NCBI GenBank assembly: GCA_018436095.1
Contig: JAHDMJ010000008.1
Location: 230,518-294,517, forward strand
Source of the DNA: Clostridia bacterium
Lineage (GTDB): Bacteria; Bacillota; Peptococcia; DRI-13; UBA5745
DNA: 64,000 nucleotides
Direction of reading: 5' to 3'
Shown: piece by piece, positions 5,196-14,631 of the stretch
How positions within the stretch are numbered: position 1 is the stretch's first letter
Layout of the letters: every line of letters starts with the position of its first letter
The notes under the pieces: model-generated
What the model was told of the DNA's origin: nothing
Database searches by the model: none
What the model saw: the letters and a program-made list of their open reading frames with translations, nothing else
Position numbers and translations under genes: made by a program

Positions 5196-5498
5196 GTCAC
5201 TCTCTGTGAAGAGAGTGGGGATTGAAATTTGGTGTGTTTTTGATGATTTTATTTTTGGTTCGGTCACTCTCTGTGAAGAGAGTGGGGATTGAAATCATAA
5301 GCGGCAATGGCTGCGGCTCCATCTCGCTGTGTCACTCTCTGTGAAGAGAGTGGGGATTGAAATCCGGTTGCGGTATCCCGCACAGATAAAATGCGTTGTC
5401 ACTCTCTGTGAAGAGAGTGTGGATTGAAGTCTCAATATAGGGATTTACCATCAACGCCTCAATGAGTCACTCTCCTCACGGAGAGTGTGGGCCGATGT
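5196..5498 (+). CRISPR. CRISPR array, leader-proximal part (4 full repeats plus 1 repeat truncated after nt 25)
   Basis: 33-nt repeats lie at 5196, 5263 and 5331 (GTCACTCTCTGTGAAGAGAGTGGGGATTGAAAT, three identical copies). A variant lies at 5398 (...GTGTGGATTGAAGT). The unit at 5466 is GTCACTCTCCTCACGGAGAGTGTGG followed by divergent GCCGATGT. Spacers are 34, 35, 34 and 35 nt. The palindromic stem and ATTGAAAT 3' end resemble type I-C-style repeats. An AT-rich leader lies upstream. Confidence 0.9.
5466..5490. repeat. left copy of the 25-nt core shared by both ends of the insertion (attL-like)
   Basis: GTCACTCTCCTCACGGAGAGTGTGG is identical to 14532-14556. It equals the first 25 nt of the CRISPR repeat. 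Confidence 0.85.
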
Positions 5499-5567: not shown

Positions 5568-5613
5568 ATAAAAAGCAACTAAGCTGACACCGCTTGAAAA
5601 GCGACGCCAGCTT
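5568..5613 (-). terminator. strand-specific intrinsic terminator ending the defence operon
   Basis: On the minus-strand transcript, AAGCUGGCGUCGCUU-UUC-AAGCGGUGUCAGCUU forms a 15-bp stem. Three of its pairs are G.U, which would be A/C mismatches on the other strand. AGUUGCUUUUU follows the stem. It lies ~70 nt after the helicase stop. Confidence 0.5.
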
Positions 5614-5685
5614 GCATGATTTTTAGTCGTTTTATGATATGGCTCAATTTTTTTACCTTTTGGGAGAAGTTCAGCAAATAGTATT

Positions 5686-8037
5686 TTATTTAGCATCTGG
5701 GTATTTGAATCGCTCGACAATCTTTTTTTGTTCATCAGTCAACTCATCATATTTGTCATTAAAGATGATTTCTTGCTCATTAATTCCATCAATACAATTG
5801 TTTGCCCACTCAATTTCCTCAAAAGTTAAACCATAACGGAGCATCCAAATATCACGTTCGTCATCTGTTCCATATCGAATATATTTTGCTAACCTCAAGG
5901 CACGGTCATCATCTTTTGAGGTTTGATTTTGATAATACTGATGGAATATAGCATAAAAAATATCTGTGAGTTTAAAGCCTATAAGTTTATCCATGTAATC
6001 ATAGGTGTCATAAATAACACGATCATAATCGACCTGAATTGCTGGCATTGTGCCGAATAGGGAATAGTTATTAAGCGTTTTATCTGGAATATCATCGTAT
6101 TCCCTCAAAAACTGTGCTTCCAATTTACCAATTTCATCCGTCCTTTCGAGCTTTTCAAGTTGTGTACGTTCCTTCTTTTTTGAGGCATAATCATATCTGT
6201 GCTGACAAATTAAGCTGAAAGTTTTTTTGTAAACACGCCAAAGCATAATCTTTATTGCCTGATTCAGGATGCTCTTTTCAGCAGACACTAATTCGCGTCC
6301 AAGGTAAATCTGGTAAAGAGAATAGAAATCTTGATACATTTCTTTTCGATCATTTTGTTCTTCATTGTCCCATTGGGGATAGACAAGCTGTCCATCGTCA
6401 AACATCATATCTAACAAAGTTGGTATAATGGATGTTATTTCTTCCGTAGCAAGCTTTTGGACATCGTTATTCGTTAGATTGTATTCATCATTGAACTGAT
6501 CATTTTTTATTGCTTCCTTGAATTCTTCATACTTTTCGTCAAGTTTCTCATCGTCTTTGTCGAGATGAGATTGTTCCGATATGCGCTCTGGCTTGCTTAT
6601 AACCGAACGAAATGAACTTTGATTGTCTTTTTTTACAATTGCTGCGCCAATATCAAATACATCCTTTTCCGTAGAGCGCCCGGATCTGCCTATTAAGTTT
6701 TTTACAGAGAGAGGCTTGCTTTTTTCAAAGCGATTCAAATAAACCACATCAAACGGCATATTTATACCCTGTTCAAGTGTAGAAGTAGCAAAACAAATCC
6801 GGCAGAAGCCTTTCTGAGTAAAATGCTCCAATATCATTCTTGCCCGAAGAGGCATAGAACCGTGATGGACAACAATACCATGTTTCAGATGTTCAAGTGT
6901 TCTTGAAAAATAATTCGCGTTTTTTCCATTTGAGGCACCGACATATTCCCGCAGTTTTTCTACTAATTCCAATGCTTCGGGATCGGTTATCTGTTGGCAT
7001 AATTGAATGTATTTCTTAAAGTCTGTATAGATTTTGTCGTTGTAAATATGTTTTTTCGGTACATATATAAGGACGCTACCGCCATCATTTATTGCCTTTT
7101 CTATAGGATCAAAAGCGGCAGGAACACGGCGTTCTCCCATAACGCTTTTATCAATACCAAAATGATAAAACTGCCCCGTGGACTGATCGTGAGAATAGAA
7201 TATTTGCCCGACATTCTTTTGTTCATACTGAATAGCCGTGGCATTATCACTTATGTCTACGTTGTTTTTCTTTAATTGCGCTTCAGGGTTAGCTACAAAA
7301 GGATGGGCAAAAACGCACTTAGCGTTAGGAAATGATTTTTGAACACGACGAACTATACTGTCAAAATATAAGCCTCGAACTGAATCTTCATCGCTTAGCT
7401 GGGCTTCATCAAAAAGCACAAGCCCTATGTTCAGTTTATCTTTTAACTTGAACAGCTCTCTTGCCCGTTCCGGGGTTAGAATGAAAATATTGCGTTTTGC
7501 GTGTTTAGTATTGATTATATCGATGAAAGTAAGGATATTAACAGTTTTATCTTCAATAATTTCATGAACACGATCAAAATACTCATTTATTAAAGCCCTT
7601 GAGGGAACGATAACGGCAACATCGTAATCTGCTGTTTTAATAAGATTTCGAAAGACAAACGATTTCCCGGTACTCGTCGGAGCCGAAAAGCTGAAGGTTT
7701 TCATTTGCCGAATCTTCTTCAAAATATCTGCCTGAACAGGAGTATATTCTTCGCCGAACTCTTCTTTTATGTATTTTCCATAATCGGCGAAGATAAGACT
7801 AAGAAAAGTGTCGGGGTTCGGTTTTTTGTAGTATAGGCCCATCATTTCAATGATATCAGATTCATGTTCTTTAAAATAGGCAGGTTGAAAGAGCTTGAGA
7901 TATGAAAATATCTCAAGTACAGAACTGTCGACTGAACCTTCCTTAAAGAGTCTTTGCCGAGCGTAAGCAAGATGTGCATCAAGATTTGTCCCGTCGCGGA
8001 TTTCAGCTATTCGGTTTAAGGATTTTGCAACTATCAT
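5686..8037 (-). CDS. hamB: superfamily-2 DEAD/DEAH-type helicase, HamB-like (Hachiman-type defence helicase)
   Basis: Motif I FSFSAPTSTGKS, motif II LFDEAQL, motif V ATSTLEQGINMP, motif VI LIGRSGRS. A ~300-aa acidic/aromatic C-terminal region has no motif I recognise. Its start overlaps the stop of the upstream small gene (ATGA at 8034-8037). Confidence 0.7.
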   Translation of the reverse strand: MIVAKSLNRIAEIRDGTNLDAHLAYARQRLFKEGSVDSSVLEIFSYLKLFQPAYFKEHESDIIEMMGLYYKKPNPDTFLSLIFADYGKYIKEEFGEEYTPVQADILKKIRQMKTFSFSAPTSTGKSFVFRNLIKTADYDVAVIVPSRALINEYFDRVHEIIEDKTVNILTFIDIINTKHAKRNIFILTPERARELFKLKDKLNIGLVLFDEAQLSDEDSVRGLYFDSIVRRVQKSFPNAKCVFAHPFVANPEAQLKKNNVDISDNATAIQYEQKNVGQIFYSHDQSTGQFYHFGIDKSVMGERRVPAAFDPIEKAINDGGSVLIYVPKKHIYNDKIYTDFKKYIQLCQQITDPEALELVEKLREYVGASNGKNANYFSRTLEHLKHGIVVHHGSMPLRARMILEHFTQKGFCRICFATSTLEQGINMPFDVVYLNRFEKSKPLSVKNLIGRSGRSTEKDVFDIGAAIVKKDNQSSFRSVISKPERISEQSHLDKDDEKLDEKYEEFKEAIKNDQFNDEYNLTNNDVQKLATEEITSIIPTLLDMMFDDGQLVYPQWDNEEQNDRKEMYQDFYSLYQIYLGRELVSAEKSILNQAIKIMLWRVYKKTFSLICQHRYDYASKKKERTQLEKLERTDEIGKLEAQFLREYDDIPDKTLNNYSLFGTMPAIQVDYDRVIYDTYDYMDKLIGFKLTDIFYAIFHQYYQNQTSKDDDRALRLAKYIRYGTDDERDIWMLRYGLTFEEIEWANNCIDGINEQEIIFNDKYDELTDEQKKIVERFKYPDAK

Positions 8038-8723
8038 ATGTTCACCGCCACTATCACAATTTCTTCAAACGGAAGAAGCTTCATGAAATCTTGGTGTTTA
8101 ATCACGCTATCAATCAGGCTGGTGCTTGCCGTGGATTTTGCAGAAAACGCTATTGCAAATCCCTTGAAGCCATCGTTCGCTCTGCTTAGGGCTTCGGAAG
8201 TACAAAAATCGCGCAAATCAGCTAACTGTTTAATATCTTTGGAATCCTCTATAAATTTTGAGACTTGTGAAATCGCAGTAGCGTGAGCACTTTGTCGTGA
8301 GTTGTATTTTGCCTCTCCGAAAATAACGGTATTGGTAGTGTTATTTTGACTGTGAAAATCGAAACCGGGGTTGCCAGAGATTTTCATACCAAGCAGTTCA
8401 GCCAGAGGGATATGTAGGTAGCTCATCTGGCTTAGGAGTGATTCACGCGCCAGCTCAGATACCACATATTCACCAGCTTCTTTAGTTACATTATCATTCG
8501 AGCAATCATCGAACTTTTTCTTGATATCAGCGATTGTTTCCTCCGCGCGCTTCTTGAAACTACTTTTCAAATAATCTTCATCAAAACGGCTCAACCATGA
8601 TAAATCCATAAGTACTTCAATTATTTGGGAGAGTGTGTCCTGCAAATTTTCGGGATCAATGCGGATGAAGGTAATGTTCTTATTATCCTCGTGAGCCACA
8701 GATTTATATTCAATAACCTTCAT
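8034..8723 (-). CDS. hamA: small PD-(D/E)xK-like protein, HamA-like (DUF1837-type)
   Basis: 229 aa, soluble. It has a nuclease-like signature GFDFH (D122) ... FGEAKY (E137, K139) preceded by AGEYVVSELARE. It sits directly upstream of, and overlaps by 4 nt (ATGA), a large SF2 helicase, which is the Hachiman gene order. Confidence 0.55.
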   Translation of the reverse strand: MKVIEYKSVAHEDNKNITFIRIDPENLQDTLSQIIEVLMDLSWLSRFDEDYLKSSFKKRAEETIADIKKKFDDCSNDNVTKEAGEYVVSELARESLLSQMSYLHIPLAELLGMKISGNPGFDFHSQNNTTNTVIFGEAKYNSRQSAHATAISQVSKFIEDSKDIKQLADLRDFCTSEALSRANDGFKGFAIAFSAKSTASTSLIDSVIKHQDFMKLLPFEEIVIVAVNI

Positions 8724-8736
8724 TGCAATATCCCTC

Positions 8737-10962
8737 CTACAGTATTACATCGCGGAGCAACGACCAAAAAGAACTGGAAACGTCGTCGCTATACTCCTCT
8801 GTGCAAATGCATAGTTCGCCGCTCTTTTTATCTTCACGGACAAAACCACCCTTCATGTCGTGTCTTTGCACAAAATCTTTCAATACAGCAAACTTGCGAG
8901 GTGAGAATTTGTCTATATCCTGACTGTTGCCGTATTTATCAAAGCCGCCTTTTGTTTCAATAATCCAGCATTCGCCATTAACACTGATGATATAGTCGGG
9001 AAAGAAAACGCGAACTTTCTGAAAGGCATCCTCGTACACGATGGAAAAATACTCCGATCCTTTATCACCGTTTTTATATAACCATTCTACGGAAGAAGCC
9101 GTTTCGCAGAATTTTTCAAATGCTTTTTCTGAGGAAGAACGAGGAGCGGCAGAAGATAAATAGCCTTCGTAAACATTCTTTTTCCAAATGGTTTGAAGCT
9201 TTTCTGACGCATCATAGGTAAACTCACATTCATGTAAGAATCTGAACTCTTTGTCCGTCCGCTTGTCGTTTAAAGTGTCCGATATCAATCTGATCTGACT
9301 CAGAGTAGCCGCCGATGCATCTCGCACGATATTTTTCAAAAGTTCGCGATTGTTGAGCGTAAAGGCATATAATTCGCTGGTCGTGGTGAATATAAGAATT
9401 TGATAGGTACTCTTATTCGAGTTTTTCATAAAGAACCTTCTGAAAATTGCGTTCAAATGCTCGTATTTTAAACCCACACGCAGAGCAATTTCACCGACAA
9501 TGTGGTGATACTCTCTGCCATGAATAGTTGTGCTTACAGGTGCCTGAATATATGTGGTGTTCAAATCTTGGTAGCTGCTTCTTTCTCCGGCGGCAATAAT
9601 CTCATTTTCTTCAGCGACATACTGCCTTACCTGATCCGAGAAGATAAAGCCGTTAGCTTCCAAGCGTTTTTTATTTTCAACTGTTCTTCCGTCTATGTTA
9701 TATTGCTTTTTGAAATAGCTGTGTATCGCTTTAAGAATCTCTCGTTGATCCCGTGCAAAAGGAACTCCGGAAACTTGTTCACAAGTCAGGCGAACCGATT
9801 TATATTCTGACTTGAGATACAGCGTGGCACCTTCCAGCGCACCTTTTCCGAGACTTTGCTTTACGCTTTCGGTAAATTTTTCGTCAAGTGTAAACAGATA
9901 GCAGCTATCGAGTAACGGATCACCGTAGTGCTTTGCCTCCGGCATCCGGCGGATGCGCCCGATTGTCTGGATTTCAAATGTTTCACTCATATGGTCACGG
10001 AGTTTAACGAGGATGTGTGCTCTTGGGCAGTCCCAGCCTGTAGCAATTGCTTGTTTGATGATTATTGCAATCGGCTTCGCGCTATTCGGTACAATTTCTT
10101 CTTCCGATGAGTTCTCATGCTTTTCGGAAAGACGAACCGCAAGCAATCCGTTGTCATAAGTTATGCCTTTTGCTTCAAACCACTTTTCAACGCCATCCAA
10201 GAGGACATCGTTTTTGTTCGGAAGCTGTACGACAATAAGAGGGTTCACTTTTGAACCACGAGAAGAGAACGACGAATAGAGCTTCCTGTGTTTATCAAGA
10301 GCCTTTGTCAGTAGATAATCTATCTGGTCTGTAACTTCATCGCCTTGCTTTATACCCTCGTTAATAACAAGGACTTTCTTTATAAGCTCTGCGGCAATAA
10401 CCTCCGCTTCCGGCACTTCAATGCGTGTTGCATCGGTGTATGCTTTTGGCGTAGCAGAAGCACGGATGATTTTATCCGTTTTGAAATAATCAATTATTTC
10501 CTTGCCTTTGATGGTGTCCCCTTCATGGCTTTCATCAATTATAATTTTAAAGGAAAGACCAGCGTCAAGAGCGTTTTCTATATGTTCAAGGAAGTTTGTC
10601 CGCTCAGTCGGTTTGAGCGCGTTATTGCTGGACTTGTTCAGCGACTCCCAGTTAATAAAGCAGACATCATTTTCTTCAAAGCCACCTGTCATAACATCTA
10701 AGAGTGTTTTTGTCTGCGAGTTATGGATATACTTATCCATCTTCTTTTTGCTTTGCTCTTCCAGATCGCCTTTGCCCGGAGTAAGCCAAATAAATACCGT
10801 TTTTGCGAATGATTTGAGATACTCATCCATAAAATGGGTGAGTATAATTGTCTTGCCGCTTCCCGTGCAGCTTTTTAGTATAATATCCCGCTTATCATCT
10901 TGCATAGCTACCATAAGGTCAGCAATAGCTTTTAATTGAAAATCAGCTAATGTAATACTCAT
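8737..10962 (-). CDS. res: type III restriction enzyme Res subunit (helicase-nuclease)
   Basis: Motif I SCTGSGKT, motif II IIDESH, motif III ASAT, motif VI QTIGRIRR. A C-terminal PD-(D/E)xK is present (FFPDYIISVNGECWIIETKGG). It starts 5 nt after the stop of a beta-class methyltransferase gene. Confidence 0.8.
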   Translation of the reverse strand: MSITLADFQLKAIADLMVAMQDDKRDIILKSCTGSGKTIILTHFMDEYLKSFAKTVFIWLTPGKGDLEEQSKKKMDKYIHNSQTKTLLDVMTGGFEENDVCFINWESLNKSSNNALKPTERTNFLEHIENALDAGLSFKIIIDESHEGDTIKGKEIIDYFKTDKIIRASATPKAYTDATRIEVPEAEVIAAELIKKVLVINEGIKQGDEVTDQIDYLLTKALDKHRKLYSSFSSRGSKVNPLIVVQLPNKNDVLLDGVEKWFEAKGITYDNGLLAVRLSEKHENSSEEEIVPNSAKPIAIIIKQAIATGWDCPRAHILVKLRDHMSETFEIQTIGRIRRMPEAKHYGDPLLDSCYLFTLDEKFTESVKQSLGKGALEGATLYLKSEYKSVRLTCEQVSGVPFARDQREILKAIHSYFKKQYNIDGRTVENKKRLEANGFIFSDQVRQYVAEENEIIAAGERSSYQDLNTTYIQAPVSTTIHGREYHHIVGEIALRVGLKYEHLNAIFRRFFMKNSNKSTYQILIFTTTSELYAFTLNNRELLKNIVRDASAATLSQIRLISDTLNDKRTDKEFRFLHECEFTYDASEKLQTIWKKNVYEGYLSSAAPRSSSEKAFEKFCETASSVEWLYKNGDKGSEYFSIVYEDAFQKVRVFFPDYIISVNGECWIIETKGGFDKYGNSQDIDKFSPRKFAVLKDFVQRHDMKGGFVREDKKSGELCICTEEYSDDVSSSFWSLLRDVIL

Positions 10963-10967
10963 ATAGA

Positions 10968-12620
10968 TTAACCCTCCAATCCTTTATAGTAATAGTCAGG
11001 AATAACGAACAATTCAATGCCAAGCAATTTAAGCGTTTCTTCCTGTTCGGCGGATAGTAGGACATCATGCCCGACATAGAGCCGCTTGCATGGATTGAGG
11101 GCTTCGGTGTTATCAAAAAAAGAATCAGCTTCTTCATCGGTCAAGACAATGGCGTTCTGGGCATTGTCTGTGAAATTTACGCCGTTTTCCAGTTCGACCA
11201 GTTCCCTCACATGTTCCAGCAATTTCGGCGCATAATCGTAGTAAAAGGTCGGATTGCCGTCTTTATCTTTTTGAGATACAAAATCAACACAGTAATACTT
11301 TAATGACTCCTTGTATTTATCTCTGTCAATAACTCGTCTAATGCGTTCATATGTGACTTCGCGGCAAATATTATTTTCGTTGTTTGTGCAAAGAATAAAG
11401 CGTCTGGTACCGCCATCTTCGGCATTCAGCTTCATAACAGCGTGAGCAGTTGTACCAGAACCTGCGAAGAAGTCAAGAATGGTAGCATTTTTGGACTTTA
11501 GACTAATATCCAGTATTCGCTCGATCAGCCTTATTGGTTTTGGATTTGTAAACATTCCCGCTTTGCCAAAAACGCTTTTCAAATCTCTTGTCCCTTCTTG
11601 GGTATCTCCAACTTCTGCTCTATACCAAATAGTTTTACATACAGTTCCTTGCTGAACTTCGGAAAGAAATGTTTTTATTCGAGGCACATTATTTCCTTTT
11701 GCCCCAAACCAAATTCGGTTATCCTTTTTCAGTGCCTCATAGTTTTCTTGAGATGTTACCCAACTACGGCTGGCTGTAGGGATGACAACTCTTCCTGACG
11801 GAGTTGTGATTGGGTACATATATGCTTCAGATGCCGTTTTTACCGTAAAATCACTTGAAGCCCACACACCTCTTGGATCATTATCGGGATTTGAGTATCT
11901 TTTATCCATTGTTTCAGTTCTACTCAATAAATTGGGATGCCACTTTTCCTTGTTCTTGGCATAAACAAGAATGTGATCATGGCTATCAGATAACCATTTC
12001 GCGTCGTTTTGTGGTGAGAATTTTTTTTCCCAAATAACATTAGCAATAAAATTCTGATAACCAAAAATCTGATCGCAAAGCAACCGCAAAGCTCCGACCT
12101 CATTATCATCTATGGAAATAAAGATAACGCCAAAATCAGACAGAAGGCTCTTAGCAAGCTCCAACCGACGCAACATGAATGAACACCATTTGGAATGTCT
12201 AAATGTATCATTTTTATCTACTAACAAATCAGAGTAAGTAAAACCTTCTTTTAATGTATTGTACGGTGGATCGATATAGATAAGGTCTATCTTTCCACGA
12301 TGCGTTTTTAACAGCAATTGCAAAGAGGCAAGGTTGTCTCCCTCAATGAGAAAGTTCACCTGCCCATCATTGTTGATAAACAAATCAGGTTCTTCAGTAA
12401 GTACAGGTACATTCTCCGCAAGGATTTCATCTATTTCCTCGCGATGCTCTTCAAACACTAAACCATATTTTTTAGACTTGACTTCCTTTTCAAGTTCAGA
12501 TAGGTACACCATCAAAACCCCTGTGTTTTCGTCATGTGGGGTTTCTGCAATATACGTTCGAATGGCTTCGATTTTGTTAATTAAGTTATCCCTTTTTTCT
12601 TTGGAGATATTAGTGCTCAC
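10968..12620 (-). CDS. mod: type III Mod DNA methyltransferase (beta-class N6A/N4C)
   Basis: Motif IV IYIDPPYN precedes motif I LDFFAGSGTTAHA, with a long variable region between them (beta-class order). It is adjacent to Res. Confidence 0.85.
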   Translation of the reverse strand: MSTNISKEKRDNLINKIEAIRTYIAETPHDENTGVLMVYLSELEKEVKSKKYGLVFEEHREEIDEILAENVPVLTEEPDLFINNDGQVNFLIEGDNLASLQLLLKTHRGKIDLIYIDPPYNTLKEGFTYSDLLVDKNDTFRHSKWCSFMLRRLELAKSLLSDFGVIFISIDDNEVGALRLLCDQIFGYQNFIANVIWEKKFSPQNDAKWLSDSHDHILVYAKNKEKWHPNLLSRTETMDKRYSNPDNDPRGVWASSDFTVKTASEAYMYPITTPSGRVVIPTASRSWVTSQENYEALKKDNRIWFGAKGNNVPRIKTFLSEVQQGTVCKTIWYRAEVGDTQEGTRDLKSVFGKAGMFTNPKPIRLIERILDISLKSKNATILDFFAGSGTTAHAVMKLNAEDGGTRRFILCTNNENNICREVTYERIRRVIDRDKYKESLKYYCVDFVSQKDKDGNPTFYYDYAPKLLEHVRELVELENGVNFTDNAQNAIVLTDEEADSFFDNTEALNPCKRLYVGHDVLLSAEQEETLKLLGIELFVIPDYYYKGLEG

Positions 12621-12835
12621 TCAGTTTCCTCCTGTTCAGGCAGAATTTCCATTATGTCTTCAATGCCGCAACTTAGTGCAGCACAAATCTTTACTAATAC
12701 ATCTGTTTGCACATTCTCACCTTTTGTAAGCTTTGCAACCGAAGCAGAGCTGATTCCTGTCATCTGACACAAATCACGCTTCTTTAAATCTTTATCAATC
12801 AACAACTTCCATAGCTTTTTATAGCTAACAATCAC
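12617..12835 (-). CDS. XRE/Cro-type helix-turn-helix regulator (possible controller protein of the operon)
   Basis: 72 aa. LKKRDLCQMTGISSASVAKLTKGENVQTDVLVKICAALSCGIEDI is a typical HTH_XRE. It has a GTG start, and its stop overlaps the mod start by 4 nt. Confidence 0.75.
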   Translation of the reverse strand: MIVSYKKLWKLLIDKDLKKRDLCQMTGISSASVAKLTKGENVQTDVLVKICAALSCGIEDIMEILPEQEETE

Positions 12836-12867
12836 GATTACACCGCCTAAATGTCATTTATTTAATT

Positions 12868-12896
12868 ATTATATTAAATATTGTTGGAAAATACAA
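12868..12896 (-). promoter_or_regulatory. candidate promoter of the HTH-mod-res-hamAB operon
   Basis: On the minus strand: TTGTAT (12896-12891), a 17-nt spacer, TATAAT (12873-12868), ~30 nt upstream of the HTH start. Confidence 0.4.
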
Positions 12897-13004
12897 GCTA
12901 AAACTTCGCGTTCGCAAAATTATTGTTTTTGAAACATAATATTTTATTTTTGTCCATAAACAGATTTAATGTCACTACAGATAATACAAGTTTAATTAAC
13001 TTAA

Positions 13005-14603
13005 TTATACAAGTGGCGCATCGGAAAACGTGCACTTAATCTCAATGCGATCCTTGTCATAGATAATTACCCGGTCGATCAGCGCAACGACAATTTCACG
13101 AGTCAGGCTGCCGTCAAAGGGCAGGTCGAAAAGCACATCATACAATGGGTCTGATATGGTTTCTTTTGGATTTTCTTTTATGGAGAGTTCCATGGCGCGA
13201 ACCTGCTCAGTGAAGCCTTGCAGCTTTCTGTCGGCATCCTCACGTAAGCGAAGGTATTCTTCTTTTTTCATATCTCCGTCACAGAAACGTGTATAAAAGG
13301 ACAGCTTGTCGTTCTCAATGGCATCAATCTGCCGTTCAATGACCTGGATACCTTTCATGCGTTCCATTGTAGCCGCCGTTTGCTTTTCATCCCGGCTCCG
13401 CCGCTTTTTCTCCTTTGCCGCGAATGCACTGTATAATCCACGCAAAGCCGCAAGCACTGTTTCCTCCACAGCGGATACCTTGACACCCTTATGCGGACAA
13501 TCACCGTTTGTATAGAAGGTCTTGTACCCGCACAGATAGGCCGGCTTTTTCGCATTGCTCCGCGACATTACATGACCGCAGCCGCTGCAGCGCACCTTTC
13601 TGGATAACGGACGAACTGTGTGCGGACGTTTTACGATAGATTTTGGGGAGCGGAAAAGGCTCTGAACCGCCTCATATTCCTCCTTGGAAACAATCGCCTC
13701 ATGACGGGTTGGAGAGATATGCCATTGCTCCTTGGGGACAAGATGGTGCCGGTTGTCGCCTACAACACTGCACCGTGTCATGCCCTGCACCAGTAACCCG
13801 GTGTATCGCACATCCTTTAATATCGCCCGGACGGTTCCGTCCGTCCAGACATTATTGGTGTTGTAGCCGACCTTGCGCCCGGTACACTCCAGTTTATAGC
13901 GCCCCGGTGTCAAGATGTTTTCTGTGTTCAGGATTTTTACGATCATCTTCACACCCATGCTATCCAGTGCCATTTTATAAATGCGCTGGACAATGGCGGC
14001 AGCGTCCGGGTCTACCACAATTCTGTGAATATCCGCGCTGTCCTTAATGTAGCCGAACGGGGCGGTTGACGCATGATACTTCCCGCCGTCCCGCAGGGCG
14101 GCAATGCCGGAGCGCACCTTGCGGGAGAGGTCTTTGGAATAGTAGTCGTTACACAGGGATTTGAACGCGACGCTCACATCGCCTGCCGAGCATTCCTGCC
14201 TGGCGCTGTCAAAGCCGTCATTGACACTGATGAACCGTACACGAAGGAAGGGGAAAATCTGCTCAAGATAGTCCCCAACCTCAATGTAGCTCCGCCCGAA
14301 CCGGGAAAAATCCTTCACAAGAATACAATGGATTTCGCCGCGCCTTACTTTTTTCAAAAGCTCTATGATGCCGGGGCGGTTGAAGTTTGTTCCTGTATAA
14401 CCATCGTCGGAAAATTCGAGGAGCTTTGCACCGCACAGGTCAGGGCAGGAAGCAATATAGCTGTCCAGAATATCACGCTGACCCTCAATGCTCTGGCTTT
14501 CGCCGTAGCGCCCATGGCCCTGGCCCGGCAGGTCACTCTCCTCACGGAGAGTGTGGATTGAAGTTCTTGGTATGCTTGTATCAGAGAAAGGAGGCGATGT
14601 CAC
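13005..14603 (-). CDS. large serine recombinase (5' end aberrant; possibly N-terminally truncated)
   Basis: ESQSIEGQRDIL...FSDDGYTGTNFNRPG...ILVKDFSRFGRSY...VRFISVNDGFDS is the resolvase-type catalytic domain. It is followed by the recombinase domain, a Cys-rich zinc-ribbon (CSGCGH...CGY...C) and a coiled coil. The first 24 codons of the track ORF (14532-14603) are CRISPR repeat/spacer DNA. No in-frame ATG lies in the first ~200 codons encoded by the element. Confidence 0.8.
   Translation of the reverse strand: MTSPPFSDTSIPRTSIHTLREESDLPGQGHGRYGESQSIEGQRDILDSYIASCPDLCGAKLLEFSDDGYTGTNFNRPGIIELLKKVRRGEIHCILVKDFSRFGRSYIEVGDYLEQIFPFLRVRFISVNDGFDSARQECSAGDVSVAFKSLCNDYYSKDLSRKVRSGIAALRDGGKYHASTAPFGYIKDSADIHRIVVDPDAAAIVQRIYKMALDSMGVKMIVKILNTENILTPGRYKLECTGRKVGYNTNNVWTDGTVRAILKDVRYTGLLVQGMTRCSVVGDNRHHLVPKEQWHISPTRHEAIVSKEEYEAVQSLFRSPKSIVKRPHTVRPLSRKVRCSGCGHVMSRSNAKKPAYLCGYKTFYTNGDCPHKGVKVSAVEETVLAALRGLYSAFAAKEKKRRSRDEKQTAATMERMKGIQVIERQIDAIENDKLSFYTRFCDGDMKKEEYLRLREDADRKLQGFTEQVRAMELSIKENPKETISDPLYDVLFDLPFDGSLTREIVVALIDRVIIYDKDRIEIKCTFSDAPLV
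14532..14556. repeat. right copy of the 25-nt core (attR-like)
   Basis: Identical to 5466-5490. Here it continues into the proper repeat 3' end, ATTGAAGT. Confidence 0.85.
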
Positions 14604-14631
14604 TCTCCTTACGGAGAGTGTGGATTGAAGT
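14532..14631 (+). CRISPR. CRISPR array, distal part (2 repeats, 1 spacer)
   Basis: GTCACTCTCCTCACGGAGAGTGTGGATTGAAGT (14532-14564), a 34-nt spacer, then GTCACTCTCCTTACGGAGAGTGTGGATTGAAGT (14599-14631). Confidence 0.85.

What the first reader, a model, noticed from the sequence alone, without database searches (positions are those of the whole stretch)
5686..8723. HamA/HamB-like pair with a ~300-aa uncharacterised helicase C-terminus
The 229-aa protein has a PD-(D/E)xK-like arrangement, GFDFH (D122) and FGEAKY (E137/K139), preceded by a GE..V.E segment. This is what I associate with DUF1837/HamA.

The 783-aa partner has a COG1204-like SF2 core (APTSTGKS, DEAQ, ATSTLEQGINMP, GRSGR). After about residue 480 it continues into an acidic, Tyr/Asp/Glu-rich region (for example DEKYEEFKEAIKNDQFNDEYNL, YDRVIYDTYDYMDKL) with no motif I can name.

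The assignment is from motif memory only. If it fails, the pair is an unclassified nuclease-helicase candidate defence system.
Basis: partly seen in the sequence, partly recalled or inferred. Interest (0 to 1): 0.65.

Follow-up and report, generated by a model that had tools for sequence, protein, structure and literature searches.

The report
Divergent Hachiman defence pair, R-M-linked
The two genes are a real but sequence-divergent version of the known Hachiman anti-phage system (a DNA-cutting enzyme held in check by a helicase), and here they sit in one mobile five-gene operon with a type III restriction-modification system that has landed inside a CRISPR array.

Summary
Both ORFs and all quoted motifs are present exactly as described and are conserved. 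The 783-aa protein is a HamB helicase: PADLOC HamB1 E=3e-52, and the top structural matches are E. coli HamB 8VXA/8VX9. Its "uncharacterised" C-terminus is confidently folded and α-helical. It aligns end to end with HamB, Hel308 and Pol-theta helicases, and taken alone it still hits a HamB1 model in 18 of 37 relatives. It is the normal HamB C-terminal module, not a new appendage.

The 229-aa protein has a PD-(D/E)xK core, and D122/E137/K139 are the only invariant residues across 112 relatives. The window copy does not reach any HamA/DUF1837 threshold. HamA is nevertheless the only family its relatives hit repeatedly, and the gene sits directly upstream of a co-diverging HamB in 77 of 80 genomes. 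I read it as a divergent HamA.

New context: HTH–Mod–Res–HamA–HamB form one tightly packed operon that moves as a unit (92% nucleotide identity to an Anaerofustis MAG, unrelated flanks). Both modules also occur alone, so the coupling is optional. The cassette interrupts an orphan CRISPR array. Verdict: new member of a known kind, moderate interest.

The parts
8034..8723 (-). hamA-like gene: 229-aa PD-(D/E)xK nuclease, a divergent DUF1837/HamA. The catalytic D122, E137 and K139 codons lie within 8307-8360.
   Evidence: ORF. Invariant D122/E137/K139. AF2 model has pLDDT 91 with alpha-beta-beta-beta-alpha-beta nuclease topology. Weak but exclusive HamA hits among relatives. Decoy-controlled HMM test. 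hhalign motif alignment.
5686..8037 (-). hamB gene: 783-aa SF2 Ski2/Hel308-like helicase, the sensor/regulator subunit.
   Evidence: PADLOC HamB1 3e-52 plus Pfam DEAD and Helicase_C. PDB sequence hits to 9wh1_B, 8vx9_B and 8zue_B. AF2 model pLDDT 86. Foldseek top hits 8vxa_A and 8vx9_B.
7753..8037 (-). HamB residues 1-95: N-terminal alpha-helical bundle, the presumed HamA-binding domain (NAH/TPR of published HamB).
   Evidence: Helices at 9-14, 19-33, 38-50, 52-56, 59-65 and 78-94 in the model. The role is inferred from PMC12278908 and PMC11914072 and was not tested here.
6598..7752 (-). HamB residues 96-480: RecA1 and RecA2 helicase core, with motif I APTSTGKS, motif II DEAQ, ATSTLEQGINMP and GRSGR.
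   Evidence: Pfam DEAD 99-236 and Helicase_C 379-455. Invariant motifs.
5689..6597 (-). HamB residues 481-783: C-terminal, mainly alpha-helical region, equivalent to the WH* and C-terminal helical/ratchet region of HamB and Hel308. It carries a family-invariant motif D672...T678-Y679-D680..D683-K684.
   Evidence: pLDDT mostly 80-93. Foldseek alignments with HamB, Hel308 and PolQ helicases span the full length. The C-terminus alone hits PADLOC HamB1 in 18/37 relatives. No Pfam or PDB sequence hit. Invariant columns.
5581..5613 (-). Intrinsic-terminator-like hairpin (15 bp stem, T-rich tail) 73 nt downstream of the hamB stop; the likely end of the operon.
8737..10962 (-). Linked neighbour: 741-aa type III-style Res subunit, with a ResIII helicase domain and a C-terminal PD...ETKGG nuclease motif. 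It ends 13 nt before hamA.
   Evidence: Pfam ResIII 5.6e-21 and partial PADLOC REase_III 7e-14. Helicase and nuclease motifs invariant in 28 sequences. Adjacent to hamA in 26 genome loci.
10968..12620 (-). Linked neighbour: 550-aa type III Mod DNA methyltransferase. The central target-recognition part (about 11,480-12,100) is swapped relative to the closest relatives.
   Evidence: PADLOC MTase_III 9.8e-118 over the full length and Pfam N6_N4_Mtase. The nucleotide-homology break is shown.
12617..12835 (-). First gene of the operon: 72-aa HTH_26 (Cro/C1-type) regulator, probably a controller protein. Its stop overlaps the mod start by 4 nt.
   Evidence: Pfam HTH_26 1.7e-19. Conserved at the same position in L001, L002 and L084-L087.
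12836..13004 (-). AT-rich intergenic region upstream of the HTH gene, with promoter-like hexamers; the presumed operon promoter.
   Evidence: consensus matches only
13005..14495 (-). Large serine recombinase gene (Resolvase, Recombinase and Zn-ribbon domains). It appears 5'-truncated: there is no ATG and no Y-x-R-x-S catalytic motif, and the N-terminal codons read through a CRISPR repeat.
5196..5498 (+). CRISPR array, left part: five 33-nt repeats (GTCACTCTCTGTGAAGAGAGTGGGGATTGAAAT and variants) spaced 67-68 nt apart. The last repeat diverges over its 3' 8 nt.
   Evidence: 0 matches expected by chance
14532..14631 (+). CRISPR array, right part: two further repeats of the same family, 9,033 nt beyond the fifth repeat. 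The defence cassette lies between the two parts.

Best explanation
The pair is a Hachiman-type two-protein anti-phage system. It most resembles the 'type I-A' layout: a HamA made only of a nuclease domain with an intact active site, plus a HamB helicase.

Shown here:
- HamB is a Ski2/Hel308-like SF2 helicase with intact ATPase motifs, an N-terminal helical bundle and the usual C-terminal helical module.
- The 229-aa protein is a PD-(D/E)xK nuclease with an invariant D-ExK triad.
- The two genes are translationally coupled, always adjacent and co-diverging.

Inferred from the published ECOR31, K-12 and S. thermophilus systems: HamB binds HamA through its N-terminal helical domain and keeps it in check while scanning intact DNA. 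When HamB loads on free 3' single-stranded DNA or damaged DNA produced during infection, ATP-driven ratcheting activates or releases HamA. HamA then degrades DNA non-specifically, clearing the phage at the cost of the cell.

In this genome the pair is the distal half of an HTH-Mod-Res-HamA-HamB operon carried on a mobile cassette. The type III R-M module is autonomous, but its cleavage of unmodified phage DNA would create exactly the kind of DNA ends HamB senses, so the two may reinforce each other (speculative).
For: HamB:
- PADLOC HamB1 PDLC00190 E=3e-52, plus 18 other HamB models.
- Best PDB sequence hit is 9wh1_B, the HamB of trypsin-HamAB (E=5e-25); 8vx9_B and 8zue_B are also hit.
- Foldseek top hits are 8vxa_A and 8vx9_B (E about 1e-16, about 918 columns), followed by Hel308 and PolQ helicases over their full length.
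- ATPase motifs are invariant.

HamA:
- The model has pLDDT 91 with PD-(D/E)xK topology.
- D122/E137/K139 are the only invariant residues in 112 relatives. This matches the essential D127/E147/K149 of S. thermophilus HamA, E138/K140 of ECOR31 and E150/K152 of DEC14B.
- HamA is the only recurrent hit: 8/112 members in Pfam (best 1.1e-5) and ten PADLOC HamA models (best 1.6e-5).
- The precomputed PF08878 hit on a 93%-identical homologue is graded 'weak', and UniRef names a 76%-identical homologue as HamA-domain-containing.
- The family HMM scores all 14 B. cereus-type HamAs at 9-13 bits against a best of 4.1 bits in 4,920 decoys.
- hhalign aligns GEY/GEF, GFD/GFD and GEAK/GESK.
- Foldseek ranks HamA 8zue_A third, among other PD-(D/E)xK nucleases. 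8zue_A is also the only solved HamA that B. cereus HamA itself detects, and only at E=0.0014.

Context:
- HamA is followed by HamB in 77/80 loci.
- HamA and HamB identities co-vary (Spearman 0.94, n=74).
- ATGA start/stop overlap.
- The pair lies in a low-GC island and on mobile-element cargo.
Against: - The window's own 229-aa protein has no PF08878 hit even at E<=10 and no PADLOC or NCBIfam HamA hit.
- The family profile finds no solved HamA by sequence.
- An exhaustive profile search over 1.84 billion representatives returns only a compact family of 322 clusters; the 150 best listed are mostly about 230 aa, so the search shows no bridge to canonical HamA.
- hhalign E-values are only about 0.01.
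- The family HMM does not detect ECOR31/Klebsiella-type or Arthrobacter-type HamA.
- No Foldseek hit for the nuclease model reaches E<0.001.
- No HamA-HamB complex model and no functional data exist for this subfamily.
Confidence: 0.85

Rival explanations
1. The five genes form one integrated machine. Type III R-M and HamAB are functionally coupled: Res cuts unmodified phage DNA, and HamB loads on the resulting ends and unleashes HamA to shred the genome. This would be a restriction-primed Hachiman, not just two neighbours.
For: - Tight single-operon packing: overlaps or gaps of 13 nt or less from HTH to HamB, one promoter region and one terminator.
- The Res-to-HamA gap is fixed at 14-23 nt in 23/24 genome loci across several phyla.
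- Res and HamB identities co-vary (Pearson 0.99, Spearman 0.62).
- The five genes transfer as one block: 92% nucleotide identity over window 5678-12874 to L002, with unrelated flanks.
- Mod and Res are the only recurrent neighbours of this HamAB family.
- Hachiman is activated by DNA damage and 3' ssDNA (PMC12278908).
Against: - Both modules are autonomous. About 50 of 77 HamAB loci lack Mod-Res.
- 51 of 62 metagenomic Res741-family loci with enough downstream sequence lack HamAB.
- Linked and unlinked Res proteins are interleaved on a crude NJ tree, forming 16 separate pure-linked blocks.
- Defence genes commonly cluster without mechanistic coupling.
- No paper reporting such a coupling was found.
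Confidence: 0.2
2. The 229-aa protein is not a HamA homologue but an unrelated PD-(D/E)xK nuclease that replaced HamA next to a HamB-like helicase. It would have the same logic but a different ancestry.
For: It fails every curated HamA threshold. No significant profile-profile or fold match was found. An exhaustive profile search shows no bridge to canonical HamA.
Against: - All sub-threshold hits point to HamA and to nothing else.
- The decoy-controlled signal to B. cereus-type HamA is clear.
- Motif order and spacing are the same as in HamA.
- Verified HamAs are barely detectable from one another: B. cereus HamA against 8zue_A gives E=0.0014, and 8vx9_A is not detected at E<=0.01.
Confidence: 0.1
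3. The pair is a housekeeping DNA-repair helicase-nuclease (Hel308/Lhr-like), not a defence system.
For: The fold and core motifs are Hel308/PolQ-like.
Against: - NCBIfam Hel308 and related equivalog scores are 29-46 bits against cut-offs of 887-1216.
- HamB models score 176 bits.
- The pair lies in a low-GC mobile cassette with R-M genes.
- The distribution is patchy and cross-phylum, with variable flanks.
- Relatives sit next to relaxase and MobC genes.
Confidence: 0.03

Closest known systems
Type I-A Hachiman (HamA made only of DUF1837 with an active D-ExK site, plus HamB; e.g. E. coli DEC14B, B. cereus-type systems; PMC11914072)
   Same: Two-gene hamA-to-hamB operon. Single-domain nuclease with intact D...ExK. 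SF2 helicase with an N-terminal helical HamA-binding region. The family HMM detects B. cereus-type HamA above all decoys. HamB matches PADLOC HamB1 models.
   Different: HamA is shorter (229 aa against 259-312 aa) and falls below Pfam and PADLOC HamA thresholds. It forms its own compact family of 322 clusters at 50% identity. In one set of loci the pair is operon-fused to a type III R-M.
ECOR31 HamAB (PDB 8VX9, 8VXA, 8VXY; PMC12278908)
   Same: Best structural match for the helicase (Foldseek E about 1e-16). The catalytic ExK sits at almost the same position (E138/K140 against E137/K139). Presumed same sensing-and-release mechanism.
   Different: ECOR31 HamB is 1174 aa with a C-terminal OB-like barrel. 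Here HamB is 783 aa, so it is too short to carry comparable extra domains, and its model is mostly alpha-helical at the C-terminus. Sequence similarity is limited to RecA2 (E=1e-6). The family HMM does not detect Klebsiella/ECOR31-type HamA.
HamB of the Hachiman-trypsin-MBL system (PDB 9WH1; bioRxiv 10.1101/2025.09.03.673762)
   Same: Closest solved helicase by sequence (E=5e-25 over residues 93-441). Similar size (853 aa), with helical N- and C-terminal domains.
   Different: That system has a trypsin-fused, catalytically dead HamA and a separate MBL nuclease effector. Here HamA has an intact active site and no protease domain, and no recurrent extra partner gene was seen near this family.
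AbpAB / type I-B Hachiman of E. coli K-12 (PDB 8ZUE)
   Same: 8zue_A is the third-ranked Foldseek match for the nuclease model. 8zue_B is detected by the helicase.
   Different: AbpA carries an N-terminal Cap4 nuclease and an inactive DUF1837. The protein here is a single domain with a conserved active site.
Hel308/Hjm and the Pol-theta helicase domain (Ski2-like DNA helicases)
   Same: Full-length fold alignment with TM about 0.5, including the region after RecA2.
   Different: These have no nuclease partner and are housekeeping repair enzymes. Curated Hel308 model cut-offs are not met.

Membership tests
Hachiman (HamAB) | hamA immediately upstream of hamB in one operon | tested here: met
   ATGA start/stop overlap in the window. 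The same order, with a 0-80 nt gap, in 77/80 genome loci.
Hachiman (HamAB) | HamB is an SF2 Ski2-like helicase that matches HamB profiles and has intact ATPase motifs | tested here: met
   PADLOC HamB1 E=3e-52. Motifs I, II and VI invariant. Top Foldseek hits 8vxa_A and 8vx9_B.
Hachiman (HamAB) | HamB N-terminal alpha-helical domain (NAH/TPR) that binds HamA and is absent from other Ski2 helicases | tested here: inconclusive
   A helical bundle at residues 9-94 precedes RecA1 in the model. Its equivalence to NAH and its binding of HamA were not tested, because no multimer prediction was available.
Hachiman (HamAB) | HamB C-terminal WH* and alpha-helical region after RecA2 | tested here: met
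   Confidently folded helical C-terminus. End-to-end Foldseek alignments with HamB and Hel308. The C-terminal 300 aa alone hit HamB1 PDLC00190 in 18/37 relatives.
Hachiman (HamAB) | HamA contains the DUF1837/HamA domain (PF08878) at curated threshold | tested here: inconclusive
   The window copy has no hit at E<=10. Among relatives, 8/112 hit PF08878 (best E=1.1e-5), and ten PADLOC HamA models are hit. The precomputed PF08878 hit on a 93%-identical homologue is graded 'weak'. The decoy-controlled HMM test is positive for B. cereus-type HamA only. hhalign E is about 0.01.
Hachiman (HamAB) | HamA has a PD-(D/E)xK fold with a conserved D...ExK active site | tested here: met
   Model topology. 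D122/E137/K139 invariant in 112 sequences. All Foldseek neighbours near the top are PD-(D/E)xK nucleases.
Hachiman (HamAB) | 1:1 HamA-HamB complex and phage protection that depends on both active sites | not testable with these tools
   Needs complex prediction or biochemistry, and plaque assays.
Hel308/Ski2 housekeeping helicases (NCBIfam equivalogs) | Score at or above the curated equivalog cut-off | tested here: not met
   Best score is 45.9 bits against a cut-off of 891 (PRK01172). helicase_Hel308 scores 29 bits against 1200.
AbpAB / type I-B-D Hachiman | HamA with an extra N-terminal effector domain (Cap4, peptidase) and an inactive DUF1837 | tested here: not met
   The protein is 229 aa and a single domain with an intact D-ExK. 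No Cap4 or trypsin hit in Pfam.
Type III restriction-modification (neighbouring Mod/Res) | Mod methyltransferase of type III class next to a Res subunit with an SF2 helicase domain and a PD-(D/E)xK nuclease | tested here: met
   Mod matches PADLOC MTase_III at 9.8e-118 over the full length. Res matches Pfam ResIII at 5.6e-21, and its helicase motifs and PD...ETKGG are invariant in 28 sequences. Caveat: the REase_III model matches are partial (7e-14), and no solved Res such as EcoP15I is detectable by sequence.

The most novel reading that the evidence does not exclude
In one set of this family's loci, Hachiman has been captured into a single C-protein-controlled operon with a type III R-M system (HTH-Mod-Res-HamA-HamB) that is inherited and transferred as one unit. 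The two layers would cooperate mechanistically: Res-generated breaks in unmodified phage DNA become the loading sites that trigger HamB and release HamA. Sequence-specific restriction would thereby be converted into complete genome shredding, with methylation adding self/non-self discrimination to an otherwise damage-sensing system.
Probability: 0.2. Interest if true: 0.6.

Novelty: new member of a known kind. Interest (0 to 1): 0.4.

Why it matters
There are three modest points.

1. A sizeable, cross-phylum HamA subfamily lies below the thresholds of the Pfam and PADLOC HamA models used here. It comprises 322 clusters at 50% identity and 932 at 90%, across Bacillota, Bacteroidota, Pseudomonadota, Actinomycetota and Melainabacteria. 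Annotation pipelines that require both HamA and HamB are therefore likely to miss these Hachiman systems (inference; PADLOC and DefenseFinder were not run). A dedicated profile would recover them.

2. The recurrent, tightly packed Mod-Res-HamA-HamB operon is a natural test case for whether restriction and a DNA-damage-sensing helicase-nuclease system synergise through shared DNA intermediates. This idea is currently being explored for other systems such as Druantia and Zorya.

3. A defence cassette sitting inside a CRISPR array, next to a decapitated serine recombinase, is an unusual snapshot of how defence loci are assembled.

The helicase C-terminus, which motivated the finding, is not new.

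Tried and rejected
- Direct family scans of the 229-aa protein (Pfam, PADLOC, NCBIfam) found no HamA hit.
- The family profile against PDB sequences returned only noise.
- Foldseek of the nuclease model against the PDB gave nothing below E=0.01.
- hhalign of the family profile against single HamA sequences was insignificant. Against profiles built from 120 canonical HamAs it reached only E about 0.01, because those profiles have low diversity (Neff 1.4-2.8).
- Reverse HMM searches (canonical HamA HMMs against the family) barely exceeded the decoys.
- The profile of the helicase C-terminal 300 aa against PDB sequences found nothing.
- Rfam scan of the island found nothing.
- The CRISPR repeat pattern was absent from all 87 loci fetched up to that point.
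- Literature searches for a Hachiman and type III R-M operon found no report.
- I considered a third conserved Hachiman gene (a HamC-like partner) and rejected it, because no neighbour other than Mod and Res recurs in more than 7 of 77 loci.
- I considered obligate R-M and Hachiman coupling and downgraded it after the reverse-synteny test.


Full report
OBSERVATION. The window contains a 229-aa ORF at 8034-8723 and a 783-aa ORF at 5686-8037, both on the minus strand. The stop of the first overlaps the start of the second (…AAC ATA TGA / ATG ATA…). In the small protein, G84-E85, E90, D122 (GFDFH) and E137/K139 (FGEAKY) are invariant in 32 homologues. D122, E137 and K139 are the only invariant columns in a 112-sequence alignment that reaches 25% identity. 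In the large protein, APTSTGKS, DEAQ, ATSTLEQGINMP and GRSGR fall on invariant or nearly invariant columns. The genes lie in a low-GC stretch (0.37-0.42 against about 0.52 in the flanks).

THE HELICASE IS A HamB. Pfam sees only the DEAD, Helicase_C and ResIII domains. PADLOC matches 19 HamB models, the best being HamB1 PDLC00190 (E=3e-52, 176 bits, residues 94-572). NCBIfam Hel308-type equivalogs score 29-46 bits against cut-offs of 887-1216, so the protein is not a housekeeping Hel308.

By sequence, the closest solved chain is 9wh1_B (E=5e-25). The depositors labelled it "DNA polymerase theta (helicase domain only)", but it is the HamB of the Hachiman-trypsin-MBL system. 8vx9_B (ECOR31 HamB) and 8zue_B (E. 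coli K-12 HamB) are also detected.

An AlphaFold2 model built with 64 homologues has pLDDT 85.8 and pTM 0.84. Its best Foldseek matches in the PDB are HamB 8vxa_A and 8vx9_B (E about 1e-16, about 918 alignment columns). Next come Hel308, Hjm and the Pol-theta helicase domain, aligned over essentially their whole lengths with TM about 0.5.

THE C-TERMINUS. Residues 481-783 have no Pfam hit. A profile of the last 300 residues from 37 diverse relatives finds no solved structure by sequence. It is not a novel appendage, however:
- It is confidently folded and mainly helical, with helices at 501-511, 532-545, 564-579, 585-604, 607-618, 621-629, 671-704, 712-722, 727-734 and 739-748.
- The structural alignments with HamB, Hel308 and PolQ helicases span the full length, so they include this region.
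- It is conserved over its full length in all 77 family loci, down to 37% identity.
- Taken alone, it hits PADLOC HamB1 PDLC00190 in 18 of 37 relatives (best E=4e-7), and no family other than HamB is hit.

It therefore corresponds to the degenerate winged-helix and C-terminal α-helical region described for HamB (PMC12278908). At 783 aa the protein is much shorter than ECOR31 HamB (1174 aa), which carries an additional OB-like barrel. A family-invariant motif in the long helix (D672, T678-Y679-D680, D683-K684) has no assigned role. It is the only unexplained feature of this region.

THE 229-AA PROTEIN.

Negative results:
- The window copy has no PF08878/HamA hit even at E<=10, and no PADLOC or NCBIfam HamA hit.
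- The family profile finds no solved HamA by sequence.
- An exhaustive HMMER search of 1.84 billion representatives returns a compact family of 322 clusters, and the 150 best listed are mostly about 230 aa, so the search shows no bridge to canonical HamA.
- Foldseek gives no hit below E=0.01.

Positive evidence, weak in each case but convergent:
(a) The model (pLDDT 91) has the classical α-β-β-β-α-β nuclease core. E85/E90 lie on the helix, D122 at the start of β2, E137-x-K139 on β3 and Q153 on the following helix.
(b) Motif order and spacing match those shown to be essential in HamA: G89/D90/E93, D127 and E147/K149 in S. thermophilus, E138/K140 in ECOR31, and E150/K152 in DEC14B.
(c) Among 112 diverse relatives, HamA is the only family hit more than twice in Pfam (8 members, best 1.1e-5). 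In PADLOC, ten different HamA models are hit (best 1.6e-5), and every non-HamA hit is a singleton.
(d) Many 70-93%-identical homologues carry a precomputed PF08878.17 hit. That hit is graded 'weak' on the 93%-identical one. UniRef names the Sporomusa homologue "HamA C-terminal domain-containing".
(e) hhalign against a B. cereus-type HamA profile gives E about 0.01 and aligns GEY/GEF, GFD/GFD and FGEAK/LGESK in register.
(f) The family HMM scores all 14 B. cereus-type HamAs (verified PF08878, E=1.8e-48) at 9-13.4 bits. The best of 4,920 composition-matched decoys scores 4.1 bits.

I conclude that this is a divergent, catalytically intact HamA. I record formal Pfam membership as inconclusive.

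CONTEXT. Eighty reference-genome loci encoding relatives of the small protein were retrieved. They span Bacillota, Bacteroidota, Pseudomonadota, Actinomycetota, Campylobacterota and Melainabacteria. In 77 of them a full-length HamB homologue starts 0-80 nt downstream in most cases. The three exceptions are two contig ends and one fragment. HamA and HamB identities to the window proteins co-vary (Pearson 0.98, Spearman 0.94, n=74), which matches the co-evolution reported for Hachiman. Clustering of all neighbours shows no third conserved gene. The only recurrent neighbours are a type III Mod and a Res, each in 26 loci, always upstream and co-oriented.

THE FIVE-GENE OPERON. In the window, HTH_26 (12617-12835), Mod (10968-12620), Res (8737-10962), HamA and HamB follow each other with overlaps or gaps of 13 nt or less. 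An AT-rich promoter-like region lies upstream of the HTH gene. A 15-bp hairpin terminator lies 73 nt after hamB. Mod is a full-length type III methyltransferase (PADLOC 9.8e-118). Res has ResIII helicase motifs and a C-terminal PD…ETKGG nuclease motif, all invariant in 28 sequences, although it has no sequence-detectable solved relative.

The Res-to-HamA gap is 14-23 nt in 23 of 24 linked loci, and Res identity tracks HamB identity (Pearson 0.99, Spearman 0.62). Nucleotide homology to an Anaerofustis MAG (L002; 92% over 7.2 kb) covers window 5678-12874, which is exactly the operon, and neither flank is shared. In L001 and L084 the homology breaks only inside Mod, as expected for a swapped target-recognition domain. 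In Logan contigs the same cassette lies next to relaxase, MobC/NikA and SNF2-type genes. The operon is thus a mobile unit.

IS THE COUPLING OBLIGATE? No. About two-thirds of HamAB loci of this family lack Mod-Res. In the reverse test, 51 of 62 metagenomic Res741-family loci with enough downstream sequence have no HamAB and 11 do. Linked and unlinked Res proteins are interleaved on a crude NJ tree. Both modules are therefore autonomous. The fusion is optional and has been gained or lost repeatedly. Functional synergy remains plausible, because Hachiman senses DNA damage and 3' ssDNA and restriction makes DNA ends. It is untested, and I give it a probability of about 0.2.

MECHANISM. Shown here: an intact SF2 ATPase with HamB architecture, an intact PD-(D/E)xK nuclease, translational coupling, co-evolution and a mobile defence context. 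Inferred from the characterised systems (PMC12278908, PMC11914072, PMC13064477): the proteins form a 1:1 complex through the HamB N-terminal helical domain. HamA is inactive or restrained until HamB engages free 3' ssDNA or damaged DNA and hydrolyses ATP. Non-specific DNA degradation follows.

NOVELTY. Hachiman is well known and structurally characterised, and this is a new, divergent member of it. The useful additions are the sub-threshold HamA subfamily, the recurrent R-M and Hachiman operon, and the unusual insertion site.

SIDE OBSERVATIONS. The cassette lies inside a CRISPR array. Five 33-nt repeats at 5196-5498 follow an AT-rich leader-like region after rplT, and two more repeats lie at 14532-14631. 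Ten of the larger ORFs elsewhere in the window were scanned against Pfam and none is a cas gene. The adjacent large serine recombinase lacks an ATG start and the catalytic-serine motif, and its first codons read through a CRISPR repeat, so it appears truncated.

Noticed in passing
window 5196-5498 and 14532-14631 (+): A CRISPR array of 33-nt repeats (GTCACTCTCTGTGAAGAGAGTGGGGATTGAAAT, spacing 67-68 nt, type I-C-like ending by recollection) is split by the 9-kb defence cassette: five repeats lie before it and two after. The fifth repeat diverges in its last 8 nt. It shares the CCTCACGG loop variant with the first repeat on the far side, which suggests they were once neighbours. Ten of the larger ORFs elsewhere in the window were scanned and none is a cas gene, so the array looks orphan.
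   Followed up: partly
window 13005-14603 (-): The large serine recombinase next to the cassette has no ATG start. Its Pfam Resolvase match begins at profile position 14. The Y-x-R-x-S catalytic-serine motif upstream of 'SIEGQ' is absent, and its first ~24 codons are read through a CRISPR repeat. It looks 5'-truncated, which would leave the cassette immobilised.
   Followed up: partly
window 5678-12874; L002 3852-11049: The five-gene operon HTH-Mod-Res-HamA-HamB is 92% identical at nucleotide level to a locus in an Anaerofustis MAG, with unrelated flanks. This indicates recent horizontal transfer of exactly this unit.
   Followed up: yes
window about 11,300-12,260 (inside mod, 10968-12620); L001, L084, L085: Nucleotide homology to the closest relatives breaks only in the central part of Mod (Mod is 57% identical in L001 while Res is 95%). 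This is consistent with a swapped target-recognition domain and hence a changed methylation specificity. In L084-L087 Mod is called as two ORFs (327 aa plus 272 or 285 aa), which could be a frameshift or phase variation.
   Followed up: no
L084-L087 (Logan contigs carrying the 93%-identical HamA): There the same cassette sits beside relaxase (PF03432), MobC/NikA-like, DUF3849 and a 2777-aa SNF2-type gene, so it is cargo of a conjugative or mobilisable element. In L086 HamB is split into 445-aa and 328-aa ORFs, a likely pseudogene.
   Followed up: no
window 5689-6597 (HamB residues 481-783), especially residues 672-684: A motif in the long C-terminal helix (D672, T678-Y679-D680, D683-K684), plus E587, F607, P651, G723, I730 and Y735-G736, is invariant across relatives down to 30% identity. 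It has no assigned function. It may be the ratchet or DNA-contact helix.
   Followed up: partly
It has no sequence-detectable solved relative such as EcoP15I. Most copies are plain Mod-Res pairs without HamAB.
   Followed up: partly
PDB entry 9WH1 chain B: The closest solved relative of the helicase is deposited under the molecule name 'DNA polymerase theta (Helicase domain only)', but according to the source preprint it is a bacterial HamB. The name could mislead automated annotation.
   Followed up: yes
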